Positions 33,187-48,785 of a stretch of DNA of 48,901 nucleotides are shown in pieces (the stretch's first letter is position 1; each line of letters starts with the position of its first letter). The position numbers and the translations under genes were made by a program. The stretch is from a virus (taxonomy: Duplodnaviria; Heunggongvirae; Uroviricota; Caudoviricetes), in IMG/VR virus record IMGVR_UViG_3300045988_155985, one strand, 5' to 3'. The notes beneath the pieces are model-generated. The model had not been told where the DNA came from, ran no database searches, and saw nothing but the letters and a program-made list of their open reading frames with translations.

Positions 33187-33919
33187 TCTGAAATTTAAAT
33201 CTTGCTTGGTAGGCTGGATTTAAAAAGACACCTCTTGATTGGGGCGGCTTTCTTGCGTCTAAAGATAATCAAATCTTTTTGCGCCTGCAACCCCTTTTTT
33301 ACTGGTGCCCATTTCAGACTCACGCTCGCGTCGTTGTCTTTGCCACTTCGTTGGGTTCGGTGTTTTTGGGCGAAGTGGCGCGCGGGTATGCGTACAAGGG
33401 GAAAGTGTGCTGACGCAAGCCAGGAACAGCGATCTAAACTAAGTCGAGTCTGAGAAAGGCAGGAGTGCGACAACTCGCCTGTGCTCTATGAGCAGAAGAA
33501 GGTATATCAGACGACCAATGGCATGATTGTGGGCCACAGGGCGCACACGGCGGCGAAGCATTGGAAACGATGTGGAGCTATCTGGTGGCATGAGTTCCGG
33601 TACTCGATCTCGAGCTTTTTTTGATGCTTTTGAGAAGGGGCCGGAACTCCGGTAAAGGGCACCCTGTATGGGGGGAGGGGGGGTTGTGTCTGAAGGGTGG
33701 TTATCGGTTATGGTGGAATTATGATGCGTAGAAAAGCGAGTTTGCTGCAAGCTATTGGGTCCATTATTTCTTTGTTTCCGGCAGTTGATCATTTTCGTCA
33801 TATGGCGACACGTTCCAGTATGGGCTTGGCGCGTGACGCTGACGCTATTCGAAAGGATTTTCAGAAAGTCTCTGGTGTTGATAAGAGAGAAAAGAGTAAG
33901 GGGCCGTAGCCCCTTGTAG

Positions 33920-35065
33920 TTATGGTCTGCTTTTCTGTGCCAGCTTATCAGCACATGTTTTTATCAGATCCTGTAGTGTCCTGGCTGGCAGGTTTGCATC
34001 CAGAACGCTGAGTATGCTGTTGTGATCAGCCTGGTCGACTACTTTGCCTGTCGGTGGTAGTAGCTTGAGCTGAGGATTCAGGTTTTCGTCAAAGCTGATA
34101 AGTGCTCTGGCGTTTCTGAGCAGATCAAGAAGTAAGGCTGATATCACATTTTCCTGAGTCATTGCTGGCAGATTTAGCGCCGCTTTAGTTTTCCCTGTTG
34201 CCTTGTCAAACTCCTTGATTAGTTCCTTCCTGTAGTTCGGTTCCGTTAATAGCCGATTATGCTCTGTTGCCGCGCGGATAATCGTTTTTTCCTGGTATAG
34301 TCGTTTAGCCAGATCACGCTCGTACTGTGTTTTTAACACGCTGCTGATAGCGTTAAAGGCTTCAATGTAGGCCAGCTTGATATCTTTCACGCCTGGACCG
34401 TCGATGCTCTCCATGAGCAAGGTAAATCCGTCTTTTGTCATGCGATAGATTGTTATTTCGCGGTCGCTTCCTTCCAGCGGTCGTTGTTCTTTAAAAAAGT
34501 GACGCGCCGCAGCTGTGCGAGGAATGCGTAACGCATCGATGGCCATAACGATGGAATTGTTTGTGGTGCTGAATGCCTGGGCAACATCGGCTGAGGTTGT
34601 GAGTGGCTCGTTATTGCACACCTTAATGTAAAACATCGGTTTGGCGTTGAGCGTATCGACAACCTCACGAGCATTGTTTGGCGAGACGGTTACGGTCGCG
34701 GCCGTTTGCGCGTTCTGGTTGAAATAGCAGTCTTCCAGTTTTTCGAACACATCCCAAGCCTGATCGGTTTCAAGCATTTTGGCGTGACGTGCAGCCCCGC
34801 GTTCTGTCCAGAGGATGAGGGAGCGGACTTTAGGTGAAACTGGATTTTGTGAGTAGTTTAAAGCTACCCGCAATTCTTTAAGGTCATTACCAACAACTTT
34901 GAAAAAGTGTTTCCCTTCAACGAAACGTACTTTGTTCTCATGATGATTCTGGCGAATACGCACCGGCTCAGTGCCGTAAAGCTGTGCCAGTAACTCGGTA
35001 GTAATGACAGGGATTTGGTTATGCAGGATAGGCTGTAGGGTGTTAACGGTCGGAAGCGTTTTCAT
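33920..35065 (-). CDS. antirepressor (Ant-like) with ORF6N/Rha-like domains
   Basis: 381 aa; N-terminal VITTELLAQLYG and central ADVAQAFS segments resemble antirepressor/Rha-family domains. Confidence 0.7.
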   Translation of the reverse strand: MKTLPTVNTLQPILHNQIPVITTELLAQLYGTEPVRIRQNHHENKVRFVEGKHFFKVVGNDLKELRVALNYSQNPVSPKVRSLILWTERGAARHAKMLETDQAWDVFEKLEDCYFNQNAQTAATVTVSPNNAREVVDTLNAKPMFYIKVCNNEPLTTSADVAQAFSTTNNSIVMAIDALRIPRTAAARHFFKEQRPLEGSDREITIYRMTKDGFTLLMESIDGPGVKDIKLAYIEAFNAISSVLKTQYERDLAKRLYQEKTIIRAATEHNRLLTEPNYRKELIKEFDKATGKTKAALNLPAMTQENVISALLLDLLRNARALISFDENLNPQLKLLPPTGKVVDQADHNSILSVLDANLPARTLQDLIKTCADKLAQKSRP

Positions 35066-35253
35066 TTTGTACCTCCCATAACTACTTTGGTTACGAGGGC
35101 GATTTTTGCGTCAGAAACAGCGTTATCGTTGCTGGCGATGCGCATAGCTTCTCGCTCAATGATTTCAGCCAGGCGGAATTTATCGGCGTATGAGGCTTTC
35201 TTGAGAAGGATCTTTACGAGGTTGACGTAATAGTCATGGGGTAGGTTTGTCAT
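35062..35253 (-). CDS. small protein translationally coupled to ant (icd-like position)
   Basis: 63 aa; stop TGA overlaps ant ATG (ATGA). Confidence 0.45.
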   Translation of the reverse strand: MTNLPHDYYVNLVKILLKKASYADKFRLAEIIEREAMRIASNDNAVSDAKIALVTKVVMGGTK

Positions 35254-35418
35254 TGTGATGATTCCCTTAAAGGTTAAGGATACTCACCACCGTCAGGTTC
35301 CAATCATTGGGTGGTGAGACGTGCAGGGTTGGAACTACCGGACACAATGACGAACCGGCGAGTCTTACGACTCCCCCGCACGCCCCACCATAATTTGGGT
35401 GTAGCAGTGCTTTACGCA

Positions 35419-35440
35419 TAAAAAAACCGCTAACGCGGTA
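35419..35440 (-). terminator. minus-strand rho-independent terminator
   Basis: On the minus strand: hairpin ACCGCGTTAGCGGT followed by TTTTTTT. Confidence 0.5.
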
Positions 35441-35585
35441 TGCGCCATTGTGTCTACGGGGTTCCAATCCCGACCGTAGATTTTGCTACGGCTCGGAAAG
35501 TGTCCACCAATGGCGCATTCATGTCAATACGGCGGGATTTTAACAGAGACAACCACATAGCGTGGGTTTATTGGTAGGCAGAAAC

Positions 35586-35613
35586 AAAAAAACCGCCCTA
35601 TTGAGGACGGTTC
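35586..35613 (-). terminator. minus-strand rho-independent terminator
   Basis: On the minus strand: hairpin AACCGTCC-TCAATA-GGGCGGTT followed by TTTTTTTG. Confidence 0.55.
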
Positions 35614-35760
35614 TTTCGTGCTGATCGGATTCGCGGTCCTTTCAGCATAACGTCGTTGTATAAACAACCACGCAAGCACAAGCGGCGTATCTATTCTTAC
35701 TCAACTGAGGTGAATAGTCCACTATTCATATAAAGAAATTTAGTTCCTTAGTTCATGCAG
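35586..35760 (-). ncRNA. candidate small regulatory RNA upstream of the ant operon (c4-like position)
   Basis: ORF-free leader on the minus strand ending at terminators; self-complementary motifs GGTTCCAA and TTGGAAC nearby; no promoter defined. Confidence 0.25.
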
Positions 35761-35999
35761 AATGAAGTTTTTTAACTTCTTCGGATGTAATTACATGTAA
35801 TAAAAGCATTTGTTATTCCTTCATTATGAAGGCGAGGACGTGTAATATGGCTTGGGGCCTTTTCGCCGATTCGCACCCGGGCACCGACTTTAAGGAAAGG
35901 ATCATCCACTTGCCGTACACGCAAGCACAAGCGGTGTGCTTGCTCTCGCGTCATTTTCGTCGGTGGAGATGCCGTGAAACGGCCTGTAAGGGCCACACA

Positions 36000-36122
36000 A
36001 TGAAAAAATACTACATGTGTATTTTTATCGTTGTTACTGGAGCTTTGTTTACGCCACATGGGGAGGGTTGGAAGATTACTGATAACGCTCTGAATGTGAC
36101 GATAAACATTAGCAGCAAGTAG
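36000..36122 (+). CDS. small hydrophobic peptide, 40 aa
   Basis: MKKYYMCIFIVVTGALF N-terminus; ATG 36000; strong terminator immediately downstream. Confidence 0.3.
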   Translation: MKKYYMCIFIVVTGALFTPHGEGWKITDNALNVTINISSK

Positions 36123-36128
36123 CGATTA

Positions 36129-36150
36129 GGCCCCTTCGGGGGCCTTTTTT
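36129..36150 (+). terminator. rho-independent terminator
   Basis: Hairpin GGCCCC-TTCG-GGGGCC followed by TTTTTT. Confidence 0.6.
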
Positions 36151-37935: not shown

Positions 37936-38592
37936 TCATAACCAGTTGACAACACTAACTACGCGGCCCAGAACTTTATAACGCTTAAATTCCTCGTTAT
38001 TCAGATGCTTAGTGTTCATTTCAGCATCCCTTTCGGTTGACAGCATAACAGCATTGTCACCCGGTATGACTCTACAGTGCCTCAAAACAACCAGGCCATT
38101 TCTGTCTTCAAGGGCATAGATCCCCTCATGAATCTCTGTATCGTCTGTATTAATCAGGACTTGGGAGCCAGGGGATATTGTTGGTGACATTAACTCATCG
38201 TTGCTCTGGAGAACTGACAGAGACGATGAGTTGATGTTCTTGCTTCGTAGAATCTCCTGTTCTATCGCCAGCACTGGCTTTTCTCCGGCGTGCGATGCTA
38301 TGTCATTTTTTATAGCTACAAGCCCAGGAATAACAGGAGCGTTAGTATTCTGGGGTGGGAACGGGTTATCTGTTAAGCACGCGATATAAGGCGCTGATGC
38401 TTTCAGGGCGTGCGCGATTTTCTTGATGGCAGGTATAGATGGTTGTCTTAATCCGGCCTCATAGTTCTGCAAGGTGCTTAAGCCTATTCCAGTGACTTGC
38501 TGGAGATCTCCGGCAGTCATGCCGGATTGTTTCCGTAGAGTCTGAATGCGCAGACCTATTTCTTTCTTGATGTTCTCGTCGTTGCTTTTCAT
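37936..38592 (-). CDS. prophage repressor, cI/LexA-like (N-terminal HTH, C-terminal S24 peptidase-like)
   Basis: HTH GMTAGDLQQVTGIGLSTLQNYE; C-terminal segment with Ser and Lys candidates; divergent from cro-like gene. Confidence 0.8.
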   Translation of the reverse strand: MKSNDENIKKEIGLRIQTLRKQSGMTAGDLQQVTGIGLSTLQNYEAGLRQPSIPAIKKIAHALKASAPYIACLTDNPFPPQNTNAPVIPGLVAIKNDIASHAGEKPVLAIEQEILRSKNINSSSLSVLQSNDELMSPTISPGSQVLINTDDTEIHEGIYALEDRNGLVVLRHCRVIPGDNAVMLSTERDAEMNTKHLNNEEFKRYKVLGRVVSVVNWL

Positions 38593-47813: not shown

Positions 47814-47889
47814 GGCCCCTTAGCTCAGTGGTTAGAGCAGGCGACTCATAATCGCACGGTCATCGGTTCAAATCCGGTAGGGGCCACCA
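47814..47889 (+). tRNA. tRNA with CAU anticodon (Met or lysidine-dependent Ile2; resembles ileX-type)
   Basis: Perfect 7-bp acceptor stem GGCCCCT/AGGGGCC; D-arm GCTC/GAGC; anticodon loop CTCATAA; T-arm with TTCAAAT; encoded 3' CCA. Confidence 0.85.
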
Positions 47890-48197: not shown

Positions 48198-48785
48198 ATG
48201 GAGGCAATTGCATTGTTTAATCTGATTTATGCAGATCCCCCCTGGGAATACAAAGACAAGTGTAAGGATGGGAATCGTGGCGCTGGTTTTAAGTATCCAA
48301 CGATGAAAGCTGAGGATATTGCTCGTATTCCTGTCTGGCAGCTTGCTAATCCTGAATCGTGTTTGTTGGCCATGTGGTGGGTTCCGACTCAGCCAGAAGA
48401 AGCGTTGCTGGTGGTGAAAGCATGGGGATTCAGGCTGATGACCATGAAGGGCTTCACATGGAACAAATGTGGTAGCCGACAGCCAGACAAGCTGGTGATG
48501 GGGATGGGGCATATGACTCGTGCAAACAGTGAAGATTGCTTGTTTGCGGTAAAAGGCAAACTGCCGACCCGCCTTGATGCGGGGATTATTCAGTCGTTTA
48601 CATCGCCTCGTCTGGAGCATTCTCGGAAGCCTGATGTGGTCCGTGACAAGCTGGTAAAGCTGTTAGGCGATGTTCCTCGTATTGAGCTGTTTGCTCGCGG
48701 TGATTTACCTGATGGCTGGCATGGCTGGGGCAACCAGTGCAACGGAGGTATCCAGTTGCATGATGCTCTCTGGCAAATGTCATAG
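48198..48785 (+). CDS. DNA N6-adenine methyltransferase, MT-A70 family
   Basis: LIYADPPWEY (DPPW motif); 195 aa. Confidence 0.75.
   Translation: MEAIALFNLIYADPPWEYKDKCKDGNRGAGFKYPTMKAEDIARIPVWQLANPESCLLAMWWVPTQPEEALLVVKAWGFRLMTMKGFTWNKCGSRQPDKLVMGMGHMTRANSEDCLFAVKGKLPTRLDAGIIQSFTSPRLEHSRKPDVVRDKLVKLLGDVPRIELFARGDLPDGWHGWGNQCNGGIQLHDALWQMS

What the first reader, a model, noticed from the sequence alone, without database searches (positions are those of the whole stretch)
33920..35760. immI-like antirepressor module with candidate antisense RNA leader
The antirepressor gene (33920-35065) is translationally coupled to an upstream 63-aa ORF (ATGA overlap). Upstream of that is a 500-bp ORF-free minus-strand leader with two intrinsic terminators (35586-35613 and 35419-35440) and complementary motif pairs (GGTTCCAA and TTGGAAC). 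This parallels the P1 immI layout (small RNA, icd, ant), where a processed antisense RNA represses antirepressor synthesis.
Basis: partly seen in the sequence, partly recalled or inferred. Interest (0 to 1): 0.65.

Follow-up and report, generated by a model that had tools for sequence, protein, structure and literature searches.

The report
C4 antisense RNA-controlled antirepressor operon
This part of a 49-kb E. coli phage-plasmid is a new example of the well-known phage P1 "immI" switch, in which a small RNA cut from the front of a transcript pairs with the same transcript further along and keeps a small leader gene and an antirepressor gene silent.

Summary
Rfam finds a C4 antisense RNA at 35395-35307 (-), 77.8 bits against a threshold of 45. 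It also finds an IsrK / a1-b1 element at 35492-35420 (-). Both lie upstream of orf63 (35253-35062) and the ORF6N-Rha antirepressor gene (35065-33920), which overlap as ATGA.

Two exposed C4 segments, GUUCCAA and GUCAUUGUGUC, are complementary to two pairs of sites. One pair lies in IsrK. The other lies just after C4, and its second site, CACAAUGAC, covers the orf63 AUG.

Across 19 phage and plasmid loci these segments differ, and all four target sites change with them. They also swap between near-identical sister plasmids.

orf63 is a real, conserved gene, but it is not homologous to P1 Icd. Ant is not homologous to P1 Ant1.

Three corrections:
- The "500-bp leader" is composite. The upstream terminator (35611-35586) belongs to a TimR-like antitoxin RNA of the neighbouring ryfA/TimP toxin gene.

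Verdict: a new member of a known kind, of modest interest. Expression, RNA processing and Ant's target are inferred, not shown.

The parts
35499..35527 (-). Predicted promoter of the module (PisrK-like): -35 TTGACA 35527-35522, 17-nt spacer, weak -10 GACACT 35504-35499. The start is predicted near 35492.
   Evidence: Read from the sequence. The block ATTGACAT..GGACACTTTCC is conserved in the Salmonella plasmid L025, while everything upstream of it diverges. Gifsy-1 has TTGACA-17-TATATT at the same position before isrK. The consensus scan did not report it, because the -10 matches only 3 of 6. Inferred, not mapped.
35420..35492 (-). IsrK-type element, equivalent to the a1/b1 region of P1. It has a 5' hairpin, a second hairpin with a1 in its loop, a single-stranded b1, and an intrinsic terminator.
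   Evidence: Rfam isrK RF01394, 67.7 bits against a threshold of 50. Rfam c4-a1b1 RF03163 gives 38.8 bits at 35505-35453, below its threshold of 46.7, E 3e-8.
35461..35467 (-). a1 site UUGGAAC, complementary to a' of C4.
   Evidence: Same relative position as a1 in the 18 other loci (-72 to -85 from the C4 start).
35446..35454 (-). b1 site GACACAAUG, complementary to b' of C4.
35419..35439 (-). IsrK terminator: 5-bp stem ACCGC/GCGGU followed by U7. It is short, so probably leaky. C4 and the mRNA require read-through.
   Evidence: Terminator scan. Part of the Rfam isrK match. In Gifsy-1, read-through of this terminator was shown (PMC4825925).
35307..35395 (-). C4 antisense RNA gene. The mature RNA is predicted at 35389-35310 (80 nt) by alignment with the annotated P1 C4 ends.
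   Evidence: Rfam C4 RF01695, 77.8 bits against a threshold of 45, full-length match. The fold gives a 16-bp closing stem, hairpin 1, hairpin 2 with a 13-nt loop and an 8-nt single strand; -46.1 kcal/mol, z -6.2. P1 C4 is annotated at 48343-48419.
35341..35351 (-). b' segment GUCAUUGUGUC, in the loop of C4 hairpin 2.
35329..35335 (-). a' segment GUUCCAA, in the single-stranded stretch of C4.
35297..35303 (-). a2 target UUGGAAC, 4 nt after the Rfam C4 match.
   Evidence: a2 lies at +1 to +9 in all 19 loci.
35249..35257 (-). b2 target CACAAUGAC. It covers the AUG (35253-35251) of orf63.
   Evidence: b2 lies at +50 here and at +29 to +38 in the other phages, where it usually overlaps the Shine-Dalgarno sequence.
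35258..35290 (-). Leader hairpin GUGGUGA...UCAUCAC. It encloses the orf63 Shine-Dalgarno sequence AAGGGA.
   Evidence: Folds of five allelic leaders all close the Shine-Dalgarno sequence with different sequences, z -1.6 to -3.8 (alignment). A weak feature; its role is inferred.
35062..35253 (-). orf63, the leader gene in the position of P1 icd. Function unknown.
   Evidence: PHROG 7886, E 5.6e-46. Compared with the Salmonella plasmid L025, 18 of 24 substitutions fall at codon position 3, with 15 synonymous and 5 non-synonymous codon changes. 39 protein clusters in Enterobacterales, nearly all 63 aa. No similarity to P1 Icd.
33920..35065 (-). ant, a 381-aa protein with ORF6N and Phage_pRha domains. 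It has its own Shine-Dalgarno sequence GGGAGG at 35077-35072.
   Evidence: Pfam ORF6N 5.9e-20 and Phage_pRha 4.5e-12. PHROG 8244 (unknown function) matches over the full length. The N-terminal 130-160 aa match several anti-repressor PHROGs, down to 8e-65. No similarity to P1 Ant1.
33898..33915 (-). Terminator-like hairpin 5 nt after the ant stop codon; the likely end of the operon.
   Evidence: Terminator scan.

Best explanation
This is a C4-type self-targeting antisense RNA switch. It is homologous in its RNA parts to the immI region of phages P1 and P7 and to the isrK locus of Gifsy-1. It guards a two-gene operon, orf63-ant, on a 49-kb myovirus-type phage-plasmid.

Proposed sequence of events:
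1. Transcription starts near 35492 from a promoter with a perfect -35 and a weak -10.
2. Many transcripts stop at the short terminator at 35439-35419. This gives a ~74-nt IsrK-like RNA carrying sites a1 and b1.
3. Read-through transcripts contain C4, which is cut out as a stable ~80-nt RNA. In P1 the cut is made by RNase P.
4. The two exposed C4 segments, a' (GUUCCAA) and b' (GUCAUUGUGUC), pair with a2 (UUGGAAC) and b2 (CACAAUGAC) on read-through mRNA. b2 covers the orf63 start codon, so orf63 is not translated.
5. Without ribosomes on orf63, ant is not expressed. This could work through loss of translational coupling (the ATGA overlap). As in P1, it could also work through Rho-dependent termination or decay of the untranslated RNA.
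6. When C4 falls short, or is titrated by a1/b1-bearing RNA, orf63 and Ant are made. Ant then presumably inactivates the CI-like repressor encoded at 37936-38592.

Shown here: the RNA elements, their structure, the complementarities and their co-variation, that orf63 is a real gene, and the overlap. Inferred: the transcription start, processing, the step at which ant is silenced, and Ant's target.
For: - Rfam C4 scores 77.8 bits (threshold 45) and isrK 67.7 bits (threshold 50), in tandem on the - strand directly upstream of orf63.
- The P1 record annotates the same order: promoters, a1, b1, C4 RNA, a2, b2, icd, and ant1 overlapping icd by 4 nt.
- C4 folds into the family structure, z -6.2.
- a' and b' are complementary to a1/b1 and a2/b2. 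0 of 5000 shuffles reach this. No other such site pair occurs in the window.
- In 19 loci the stems are conserved, but a' takes at least 10 different sequences, and a1 and a2 match it every time. The summed cognate complementarity is 29.2 nt, against 17.7 nt for non-cognate pairs.
- Among sister plasmids with near-identical promoter and orf63, whole specificity sets are exchanged together. The a sites read UUGGAAC, UUGGCGU, UUAGCCU or UUGAGAC. The b' segments read CAUUGUG, CCAUGGUGA or CCUGUAAUG.
- orf63 is under purifying selection and widely conserved.
- Gifsy-1 has the same isrK-C4-ant layout. Its promoter, terminator read-through and dependence of anrP on an upstream ORF were shown experimentally (PMC4825925).
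- The P1 mechanism is summarised in PMC8198154.
Against: - There are no expression, end-mapping or genetic data for this element.
- orf63 and Ant have no detectable similarity to P1 Icd or Ant1, so the protein-level outcome is by analogy only.
- Ant's full-length family, PHROG 8244, has no known function. Rha-type proteins are also annotated as transcriptional regulators.
- ant has a strong Shine-Dalgarno sequence of its own, so blocking orf63 translation need not silence ant unless polarity or decay follows.
- C4 lies downstream of an intrinsic terminator, so its supply depends on read-through.
- No operator or neighbouring repressor gene was found. There is no P1 C1 operator and no LexA box. 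The HTH regulator gene that relatives carry next to the promoter is missing here.
- b2 sits 12-21 nt further from C4 than in the other phage loci compared (+50 against +29 to +38).
Confidence: 0.8

Rival explanations
1. Gifsy-1-type positive control dominates. The long read-through RNA folds so that a1/b1 pair in cis with the C4 region and the mRNA is translationally silent. The short IsrK-like RNA then acts in trans as an activator that opens it, or soaks up C4. On this view the C4 region is mainly an mRNA structure rather than a free repressor RNA.
For: - The isrK match is above threshold.
- The minimum-energy fold of the 253-nt read-through RNA pairs GGGAUUGGAAC..GACACAAUGG (a1/b1) with CAUUGUGUCCGGUAGUUCCAACCC (b'/a') in cis, -100.5 kcal/mol, z -5.2. 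This resembles helix b-I of 'structure A' in PMC4825925.
- Gifsy-1 carries the same isrK-C4 tandem.
- IsrK in trans raised anrP translation more than 100-fold there.
- The orf63 Shine-Dalgarno sequence sits in a hairpin in all five allelic leaders.
Against: - The ORF across C4, which in Gifsy-1 is orf45 and carries the coupling, is broken or different in sister plasmids. Here a separate, conserved orf63 follows instead.
- a2/b2 lie downstream of C4 and co-vary with it. A purely cis/IsrK model does not require that.
- The two models are not exclusive. This may be a second layer on top of C4 repression.
Confidence: 0.3
2. P4/N15-type control. The C4-like RNA pairs with the nascent transcript and causes premature transcription termination, rather than blocking translation initiation.
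For: - An intrinsic terminator follows a1/b1 directly. C4 pairing with a1/b1 on nascent RNA could therefore favour termination and regulate its own synthesis.
- The Gifsy-1 authors draw the parallel to P4 seqA / CI RNA / seqC.
- From my own knowledge, P4 CI RNA and N15 CA RNA work this way.
Against: - There is no terminator-like hairpin with a U-run between a2 and the orf63 start. The leader hairpin is followed by AUCAUCACAAUG.
- b2 covers the AUG here and the Shine-Dalgarno sequence in most relatives. That placement points to translation initiation as the target.
Confidence: 0.15
3. One reading: one 500-bp untranslated leader (35254-35760) with two attenuating terminators, and the regulatory small RNA made from 35.4-35.8 kb.
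For: Both hairpin and T-run structures exist on the - strand. IsrK does lie within 35.42-35.49 kb.
Against: - The segment 35691-35586 has 17 nt of perfect complementarity (20 with one G-U pair) to the 5' part of the divergent ryfA RNA, 66 nt before its 40-aa ORF, and ends in the terminator. This is the arrangement described for TimR/TimP (PMC7667032).
- In relatives an ~810-bp cassette with an HTH gene on the other strand separates this terminator from the isrK promoter. The two are therefore not one transcription unit.
- C4 itself lies at 35395-35307.
Confidence: 0.05
4. A decayed, non-functional remnant, or a chance resemblance.
For: None, beyond the absence of experimental data. In some sister plasmids only a 238-aa Rha protein is annotated, about 420 nt after orf63. 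The cargo gene may be damaged there.
Against: - Full-length Rfam matches.
- Intact ORFs.
- Purifying selection on orf63.
- Concerted change of the specificity segments and all their targets among close relatives.
Confidence: 0.02

Closest known systems
immI region of phages P1 and P7 (c4 - icd - ant1/ant2)
   Same: - The order is the same: promoter, a1, b1, a terminator-like hairpin, C4, a2, b2, a short leader ORF, and an antirepressor gene overlapping it by 4 nt.
- The C4 RNA is homologous (Rfam).
- Specificity lies in two short exposed segments whose targets flank the RNA gene.
- Different alleles carry different specificities, the basis of P1/P7 heteroimmunity (own knowledge; seen here).
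   Different: - orf63 is unrelated to Icd, and Ant (ORF6N + Rha) is unrelated to Ant1/2.
- There is no C1 operator. The element's main repressor is CI-like (HTH_3 plus a weak S24 match), not C1.
- b2 covers the AUG rather than the Shine-Dalgarno sequence and lies further downstream (+50 against +30).
- The host element is a 49-kb P2-like-tailed phage-plasmid, not a 94-kb P1-like one.
Gifsy-1 isrK - orf45 - anrP locus (Hershko-Shalev et al. 2016, PMC4825925)
   Same: - The IsrK RNA is homologous and a C4-family RNA follows it.
- There is a leaky terminator, and an antirepressor-type gene lies downstream.
- a1/b1 can pair in cis with the C4 region.
   Different: - In Gifsy-1 the antirepressor gene follows C4 directly. 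The coupling ORF (orf45) starts at the conserved AUG inside C4.
- Here that ORF is not conserved, and a separate 63-aa gene lies between C4 and ant.
- I did not check whether a Q-type antiterminator partner lies nearby.
C4 modules of lambdoid, Stx and P2-like phages (Rfam C4 / c4-a1b1; Weinberg et al. 2010, PMC2864571)
   Same: The isrK + C4 tandem and the a2/b2 logic are the same in front of ant, Bro-N, Rha or 'derepression' genes. The first ~300 nt of ant here are about 93% identical to ant genes of Stx phages.
   Different: Those phages have no leader gene; b2 sits on the Shine-Dalgarno sequence of the cargo gene itself.
P4 CI RNA (seqA/seqB/seqC) and N15 CA RNA
   Same: A small RNA is processed from the leader of the operon it controls, with complementary sites upstream and downstream (PMC4825925; own knowledge).
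   Different: Those act by transcription termination. No terminator lies next to a2/b2 here.
sRNA-Xcc1 (Rfam RF02221) modules upstream of orf63 homologues
   Same: In Yersinia, Erwinia and other enterobacterial islands, an orf63 homologue sits about 40 nt after an sRNA. That sRNA has the same overall architecture, with duplicated complementary sites before and after it.
   Different: It is a different RNA family; the C4 model does not match it even at E 10. It is absent from this window.

Membership tests
Rfam C4 antisense RNA (RF01695) | Covariance-model score at or above the curated threshold, over the full model | tested here: met
   77.8 bits against 45, model positions 1-87 of 87, at 35395-35307 (-).
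Rfam C4 antisense RNA (RF01695) | Long closing stem enclosing two hairpins, with an exposed loop (b') and a single-stranded stretch (a') | tested here: met
   The fold of 35389-35310 gives exactly this: -46.1 kcal/mol, z -6.2, 0 of 200 shuffles as good.
Rfam C4 antisense RNA (RF01695) | a' and b' complementary to a2/b2 just downstream, at the translation start of the first gene | tested here: met
   a2 at 35303-35297 (7 nt). b2 at 35257-35249 (9 nt), covering the orf63 AUG. They co-vary in 19 loci and in sister plasmids.
Rfam C4 antisense RNA (RF01695) | Second target pair a1/b1 upstream in the same transcript | tested here: met
   a1 at 35467-35461 and b1 at 35454-35446, within the isrK match (67.7 bits against 50). 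The narrower c4-a1b1 model reaches only 38.8 bits against 46.7.
Rfam C4 antisense RNA (RF01695) | Excised from a longer precursor (RNase P at the 5' end) to a stable RNA of about 77 nt | not testable with these tools
   The ends 35389 and 35310 are predicted only by alignment with the annotated P1 RNA.
P1-type immI operon (c4-icd-ant) | Short leader ORF between C4 and the antirepressor gene, overlapping it | tested here: met
   orf63 and ant overlap as ATGA. P1 icd and ant1 overlap by 4 nt.
P1-type immI operon (c4-icd-ant) | Leader protein homologous to Icd | tested here: not met
   BLASTP finds no alignment at E <= 100. orf63 has no Pfam or NCBIfam match.
P1-type immI operon (c4-icd-ant) | Antirepressor homologous to Ant1/Ant2 | tested here: not met
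   Best BLASTP E-value is 5.1. The domains are ORF6N + Phage_pRha.
P1-type immI operon (c4-icd-ant) | C1 operator at the operon promoter | tested here: not met
   No match to ATTGCTCTAATAAATTT with up to 3 mismatches anywhere in the window.
IsrK (RF01394) / Gifsy-1 isrK-orf45-anrP | Covariance-model score at or above threshold, including the intrinsic terminator | tested here: met
   67.7 bits against 50 at 35492-35420. The terminator was also found by the scan.
IsrK (RF01394) / Gifsy-1 isrK-orf45-anrP | Coupling ORF (orf45) that starts inside the C4 region and leads into the antirepressor gene | tested here: not met
   An ORF exists here (ATG 35419 to stop 35267, 50 aa). It ends before orf63 and is interrupted or different in four of five relatives.
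IsrK (RF01394) / Gifsy-1 isrK-orf45-anrP | Short RNA activates translation of the long isoform in trans | not testable with these tools
   Only the cis-pairing potential of a1/b1 with b'/a' could be shown.
TimP/TimR (ryfA) type I toxin-antitoxin, for the upstream terminator only | ryfA RNA with a small hydrophobic ORF, plus a divergent sRNA whose 5' part is complementary to the ryfA 5' region and which ends in an intrinsic terminator | tested here: met
   - ryfA scores 138.4 bits against 80 at 35853-36150 (+).
- It contains a 40-aa ORF from 36000.
- 17 nt of perfect complementarity link 35685-35669 (-) to 35918-35934 (+), 66 nt before the ORF; >=12 nt arose in 4 of 2000 shuffles.
- The terminator is at 35611-35586.
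- This matches the criteria as described in PMC7667032.

The most novel reading that the evidence does not exclude
orf63 may be more than a passive leader peptide. It could be the conserved first gene of a wider class of self-targeting sRNA switches on enterobacterial mobile elements. The same 63-aa gene follows either a C4 RNA (here) or an sRNA-Xcc1-type RNA (Yersinia, Erwinia and others), and variable cargo overlaps it by 4 nt.

If so, two things follow. First, sRNA-Xcc1, which the papers I read treat as a trans-acting, virulence-linked sRNA, would be a functional analogue of C4 that controls its own operon in these elements. Second, the IsrK-like short RNA would act as a decoy for C4, which would unify the P1 'repressor RNA' and Gifsy-1 'activator RNA' descriptions of one module.

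In addition, the wholesale exchange of a/b specificity sets among near-identical 48-kb plasmids would define heteroimmune types that decide which co-resident or incoming relatives can induce each other.
Probability: 0.3. Interest if true: 0.5.

Novelty: new member of a known kind. Interest (0 to 1): 0.3.

Why it matters
For annotation, a 700-bp region that public records of this plasmid family leave blank or call "hypothetical protein" resolves into named parts. These are a TimR-like antitoxin RNA, a promoter, an IsrK/a1-b1 RNA, a C4 RNA and two target sites.

For biology, it predicts that this widespread family of E. coli, Salmonella and Yersinia phage-plasmids has a second, RNA-based immunity layer. 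That layer would decide whether an antirepressor is made, and its specificity alleles differ between otherwise near-identical plasmids. This bears on superinfection immunity, cross-induction and co-residence of such elements.

It also shows that the P1 and Gifsy-1 literatures describe the same RNA module. None of this is a new kind of mechanism.

Tried and rejected
- BLASTP of orf63 against P1 Icd and of Ant against P1 Ant1 found no similarity.
- Pfam and NCBIfam gave nothing for orf63.
- tblastn of orf63 against the phage collection found only the three near-identical Yersinia phages.
- The search for related loci with Ant in the one-genome-per-species collection gave six weak or partial loci, of no use for the leader.
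- The sigma-70 scan did not find the isrK-type promoter because its -10 is weak. It also did not list the 35611-35586 terminator.
- LexA-box and P1 C1-operator searches near the promoter and across the window were empty.
- A duplex-energy matrix of C4 alleles against leaders did not discriminate. It ignores intramolecular structure, and three alleles share b'. I do not use it as evidence.
- The C4 model does not match sRNA-Xcc1 loci even at E 10, so I do not claim homology between the two RNAs.
- Pfam does not match the window's own ORF across C4.
- No paper on phages vB_YpM_39/41/44 was found, and the 1993 icd paper (PMC204598) is not held. Statements about Rho-dependent polarity in P1, RNase P processing, and P4/N15 termination rest on my own knowledge.
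- I considered that the 35611-35586 terminator was an attenuator of the ant leader. I rejected this for the reasons given under the fourth rival.
Full report
**What the window is.** The region matches 48-49 kb non-mobilizable plasmids of E. coli, E. albertii, E. fergusonii and Salmonella at 93-98% identity. It also matches three 49-kb Yersinia myophages. The closest record, pHN68-3, is annotated with terminase, portal, capsid, contractile-tail and baseplate genes. It also carries RepA, ParA/ParB, a RelE/ParE pair, holins and an endolysin. The window is therefore a phage-plasmid. Its likely main repressor is a 218-aa HTH_3 protein with a weak S24-peptidase match at 37936-38592 (-).

**Checking the observation.**
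- The 381-aa ORF (33920-35065, -) and the 63-aa ORF (35062-35253, -) are as described and overlap as ATGA.
- The terminator at 35439-35419 is found by the scan.
- The one at 35611-35586 is a strong hairpin followed by U7.
On the - strand, TTGGAAC occurs at 35467 and 35303, and GTTCCAA at 35335.

**What it is.** An Rfam scan at curated thresholds gives four hits in the window:
- C4 antisense RNA at 35395-35307 (-), 77.8 bits against 45.
- isrK at 35492-35420 (-), 67.7 bits against 50.
- ryfA at 35853-36150 (+), 138 bits against 80.
- A tRNA-Met far away.

The P1 genome record annotates its immI region in this order: C1 operator, two promoters, a1, b1, C4 RNA, a2, b2, icd, and ant1 overlapping icd by 4 nt. 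The window has the same order. By alignment with the P1 RNA ends, the mature C4 would be 35389-35310. That RNA folds into a 16-bp closing stem, a first hairpin, a second hairpin with a 13-nt loop and an 8-nt single strand, with z -6.2.

The loop carries b' (GUCAUUGUGUC) and the single strand carries a' (GUUCCAA). Their complements lie at two places:
- In the IsrK element: a1 at 35467-35461 and b1 at 35454-35446.
- Just after C4: a2 at 35303-35297 and b2 at 35257-35249.

b2, CACAAUGAC, covers the orf63 AUG. No shuffle of the flanks reached this total complementarity (0 of 5000). No other a...b pair exists in the 48.9 kb.

**Comparative evidence.** A sensitive search with the 261-nt RNA region finds it in 257 phage records. 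I fetched 17 diverse loci plus P1 and a sister plasmid. The set covers Stx and other lambdoid phages, P2-like P88 and Shae_phiSM, a Klebsiella telomere phage, and the P1-like phages SJ46 and D6. Rfam calls C4 in all of them, and isrK or c4-a1b1 just upstream.

The stems are nearly invariant, but a' takes at least ten different sequences and b' is as variable. In every locus a1 and a2 are the exact complement of that locus's a', at fixed positions, and b1 and b2 follow b'. Cognate sets sum to 29.2 nt of complementarity on average, against 17.7 nt for non-cognate sets.

The most telling case is inside this plasmid family. Five relatives have an almost identical promoter and orf63. Even so, the a-set reads UUGGAAC, UUGGCGU, UUAGCCU or UUGAGAC, and the b'-set reads CAUUGUG, CCAUGGUGA or CCUGUAAUG. 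The RNA segment and both targets always change together. This is the pattern expected of a working specificity determinant. It is the same kind of difference that makes P1 and P7 heteroimmune (own knowledge).

**The genes under control.**
- orf63 is a genuine gene. Against the Salmonella plasmid, 18 of 24 substitutions fall at third codon positions, with 15 synonymous and 5 non-synonymous codon changes.
- It matches PHROG 7886 over its full length. It has 39 clusters of homologues in Escherichia, Salmonella, Klebsiella, Yersinia, Hafnia and Erwinia, nearly all 63 aa.
- It has no similarity to P1 Icd and no known domain.
- Ant has ORF6N and Phage_pRha domains. Its N-terminal part matches several anti-repressor PHROGs, but its full-length family has no known function.
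- Ant is unrelated to P1 Ant1.
- Ant has its own good Shine-Dalgarno sequence, GGGAGG, 6 nt before the ATG.
- A terminator-like hairpin follows ant.

**How it most likely works.** The promoter is inferred from a perfect TTGACA, a 17-nt spacer and a weak GACACT. It is conserved in the Salmonella relative exactly where the upstream similarity ends. It is placed like the mapped isrK promoter of Gifsy-1.

The 5-bp terminator stem after b1 is short. In Gifsy-1 a fraction of transcripts reads through it. Read-through RNA yields C4 and the orf63-ant message. C4 then pairs with a2 and b2 and blocks initiation at orf63. Ant would be lost through coupling and, as in P1, polarity (PMC8198154; own knowledge for the Rho step).

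Two further structural features are consistent with tight control:
- In all five allelic leaders a hairpin encloses the orf63 Shine-Dalgarno sequence.
- The whole read-through RNA can pair a1/b1 with b'/a' in cis. This is the 'structure A' helix of the Gifsy-1 study.

Gifsy-1 itself has isrK at 34316-34240 and a C4-family RNA at 34214-34131, in front of anrP. The P1 'repressor RNA' and Gifsy-1 'activator RNA' accounts therefore concern the same module. A simple reconciliation is that short IsrK titrates C4 or competes with it. That is an inference.

**What is not part of it.** The segment 35691-35586 (-) is a separate gene.
- Its 5' part has 17 nt of perfect complementarity (20 with one G-U pair) to ryfA at 35918-35934. 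That site lies 66 nt before a 40-aa hydrophobic ORF starting at 36000.
- It ends in the 35611-35586 terminator.
- This matches the published description of TimR next to TimP/ryfA.
- In the ATCC 25922 plasmid both copies of the complementary stretch carry the same two changes.
- In that plasmid, and in the closest relative, an ~810-bp cassette with a 190-aa HTH regulator gene on the other strand sits between this terminator and the isrK-type promoter. The window has 11 unrelated bases there.

**Comparison and verdict.** The RNA part is a member of the C4 family by every feature I could test. The operon works like P1 immI, but by protein content it is not a member of that operon family. It has no Icd, no Ant1/2 and no C1 operator. 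It differs from the lambdoid and Gifsy-1 versions in having a dedicated leader gene. It also differs from the other phage loci compared in placing b2 on the start codon, further from C4. This is a new member of a known kind.

Noticed in passing
window 35586-36150 (TimR-like sRNA 35691-35586, - strand; ryfA 35853-36150, + strand; 40-aa ORF 36000-36122): A complete TimP/TimR-type (ryfA) type I toxin-antitoxin pair sits on this phage-plasmid, directly next to the immI-like module. The divergent sRNA has 17-20 nt of complementarity to the ryfA 5' region and its own terminator. The papers I read describe timPR as a chromosomal locus.
   Followed up: partly
window 35569-35579, compared with L001:3600-4172 and L029:32739-33311: Many sister plasmids, including the ATCC 25922 plasmid and pHN68-3, carry an ~810-bp cassette here with a 190-aa HTH_3 regulator gene. 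It is divergent from the isrK-type promoter, with repeated GTTCC-containing motifs in the spacer. The window has 11 unrelated bases instead. The regulator could be a repressor of the module that this variant lacks.
   Followed up: partly
L031:1869-1959, L032:1882-1965, L033:1876-1960, L004:2197-2280: orf63 homologues in Yersinia, Erwinia and another enterobacterium are preceded by Rfam sRNA-Xcc1 instead of C4. In all four sRNA-Xcc1 loci examined, the second hairpin loop and the single-stranded stretch are complementary to sites both upstream and downstream. The downstream site lies at the Shine-Dalgarno sequence, and each locus has a different sequence. This looks like a C4-analogous self-targeting switch. 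The papers I read treat sRNA-Xcc1 as a trans-acting virulence sRNA.
   Followed up: partly
L031-L034, genes after the orf63 homologue: The gene that overlaps the orf63 homologue by 4 nt varies: a 65-aa ORF, a P22_AR_N antirepressor, or a 56-aa ORF. orf63 therefore behaves as a conserved adaptor or leader gene with exchangeable cargo.
   Followed up: partly
P0004 residues 2-39; L030:34131-34214; window 35267-35419: Pfam Phage_ASH (PF10554) matches the translation of the 3' half of the C4 RNA gene in N-terminally extended gene calls of orf63 homologues. Some records name these 'ash family protein'. Gifsy-1 orf45 likewise starts at the conserved AUG inside C4. At least part of this protein family may be a translated RNA gene.
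   Followed up: partly
L012:1121-2272 (phage PhiR40_1); similarly L014:1075-2223 (phage cdtI): The annotated 383-aa 'Rha protein' / 'putative antirepressor' CDS reads straight through isrK and C4. A start codon with a Shine-Dalgarno sequence follows b2 (MATIPTL...), so the annotated N-terminal ~190 aa are probably an artefact.
   Followed up: partly
window 35318-35310 pairing with 35291-35283: The 3' strand of the C4 closing stem (CUCACCACC) can instead pair with GGUGGUGAG downstream, which places a2 in the loop. Across 17 loci, 92% of cells pair, and four pairs show changes on both sides. These trace to about two independent lineages: the P1 group and the Klebsiella phage. The hairpin excludes the C4 fold, so it can exist only in unprocessed RNA. 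Its role is unknown.
   Followed up: partly
L027:842-2175, L028:2278-3608, L029:30957-32287: In several sister plasmids only a 238-aa Rha regulator is annotated, about 420 nt after orf63. The ORF6N-encoding 5' part of ant may be disrupted or replaced there.
   Followed up: no
window 47814-47889 (+): The plasmid carries a tRNA-Met (CAT) gene.
   Followed up: no
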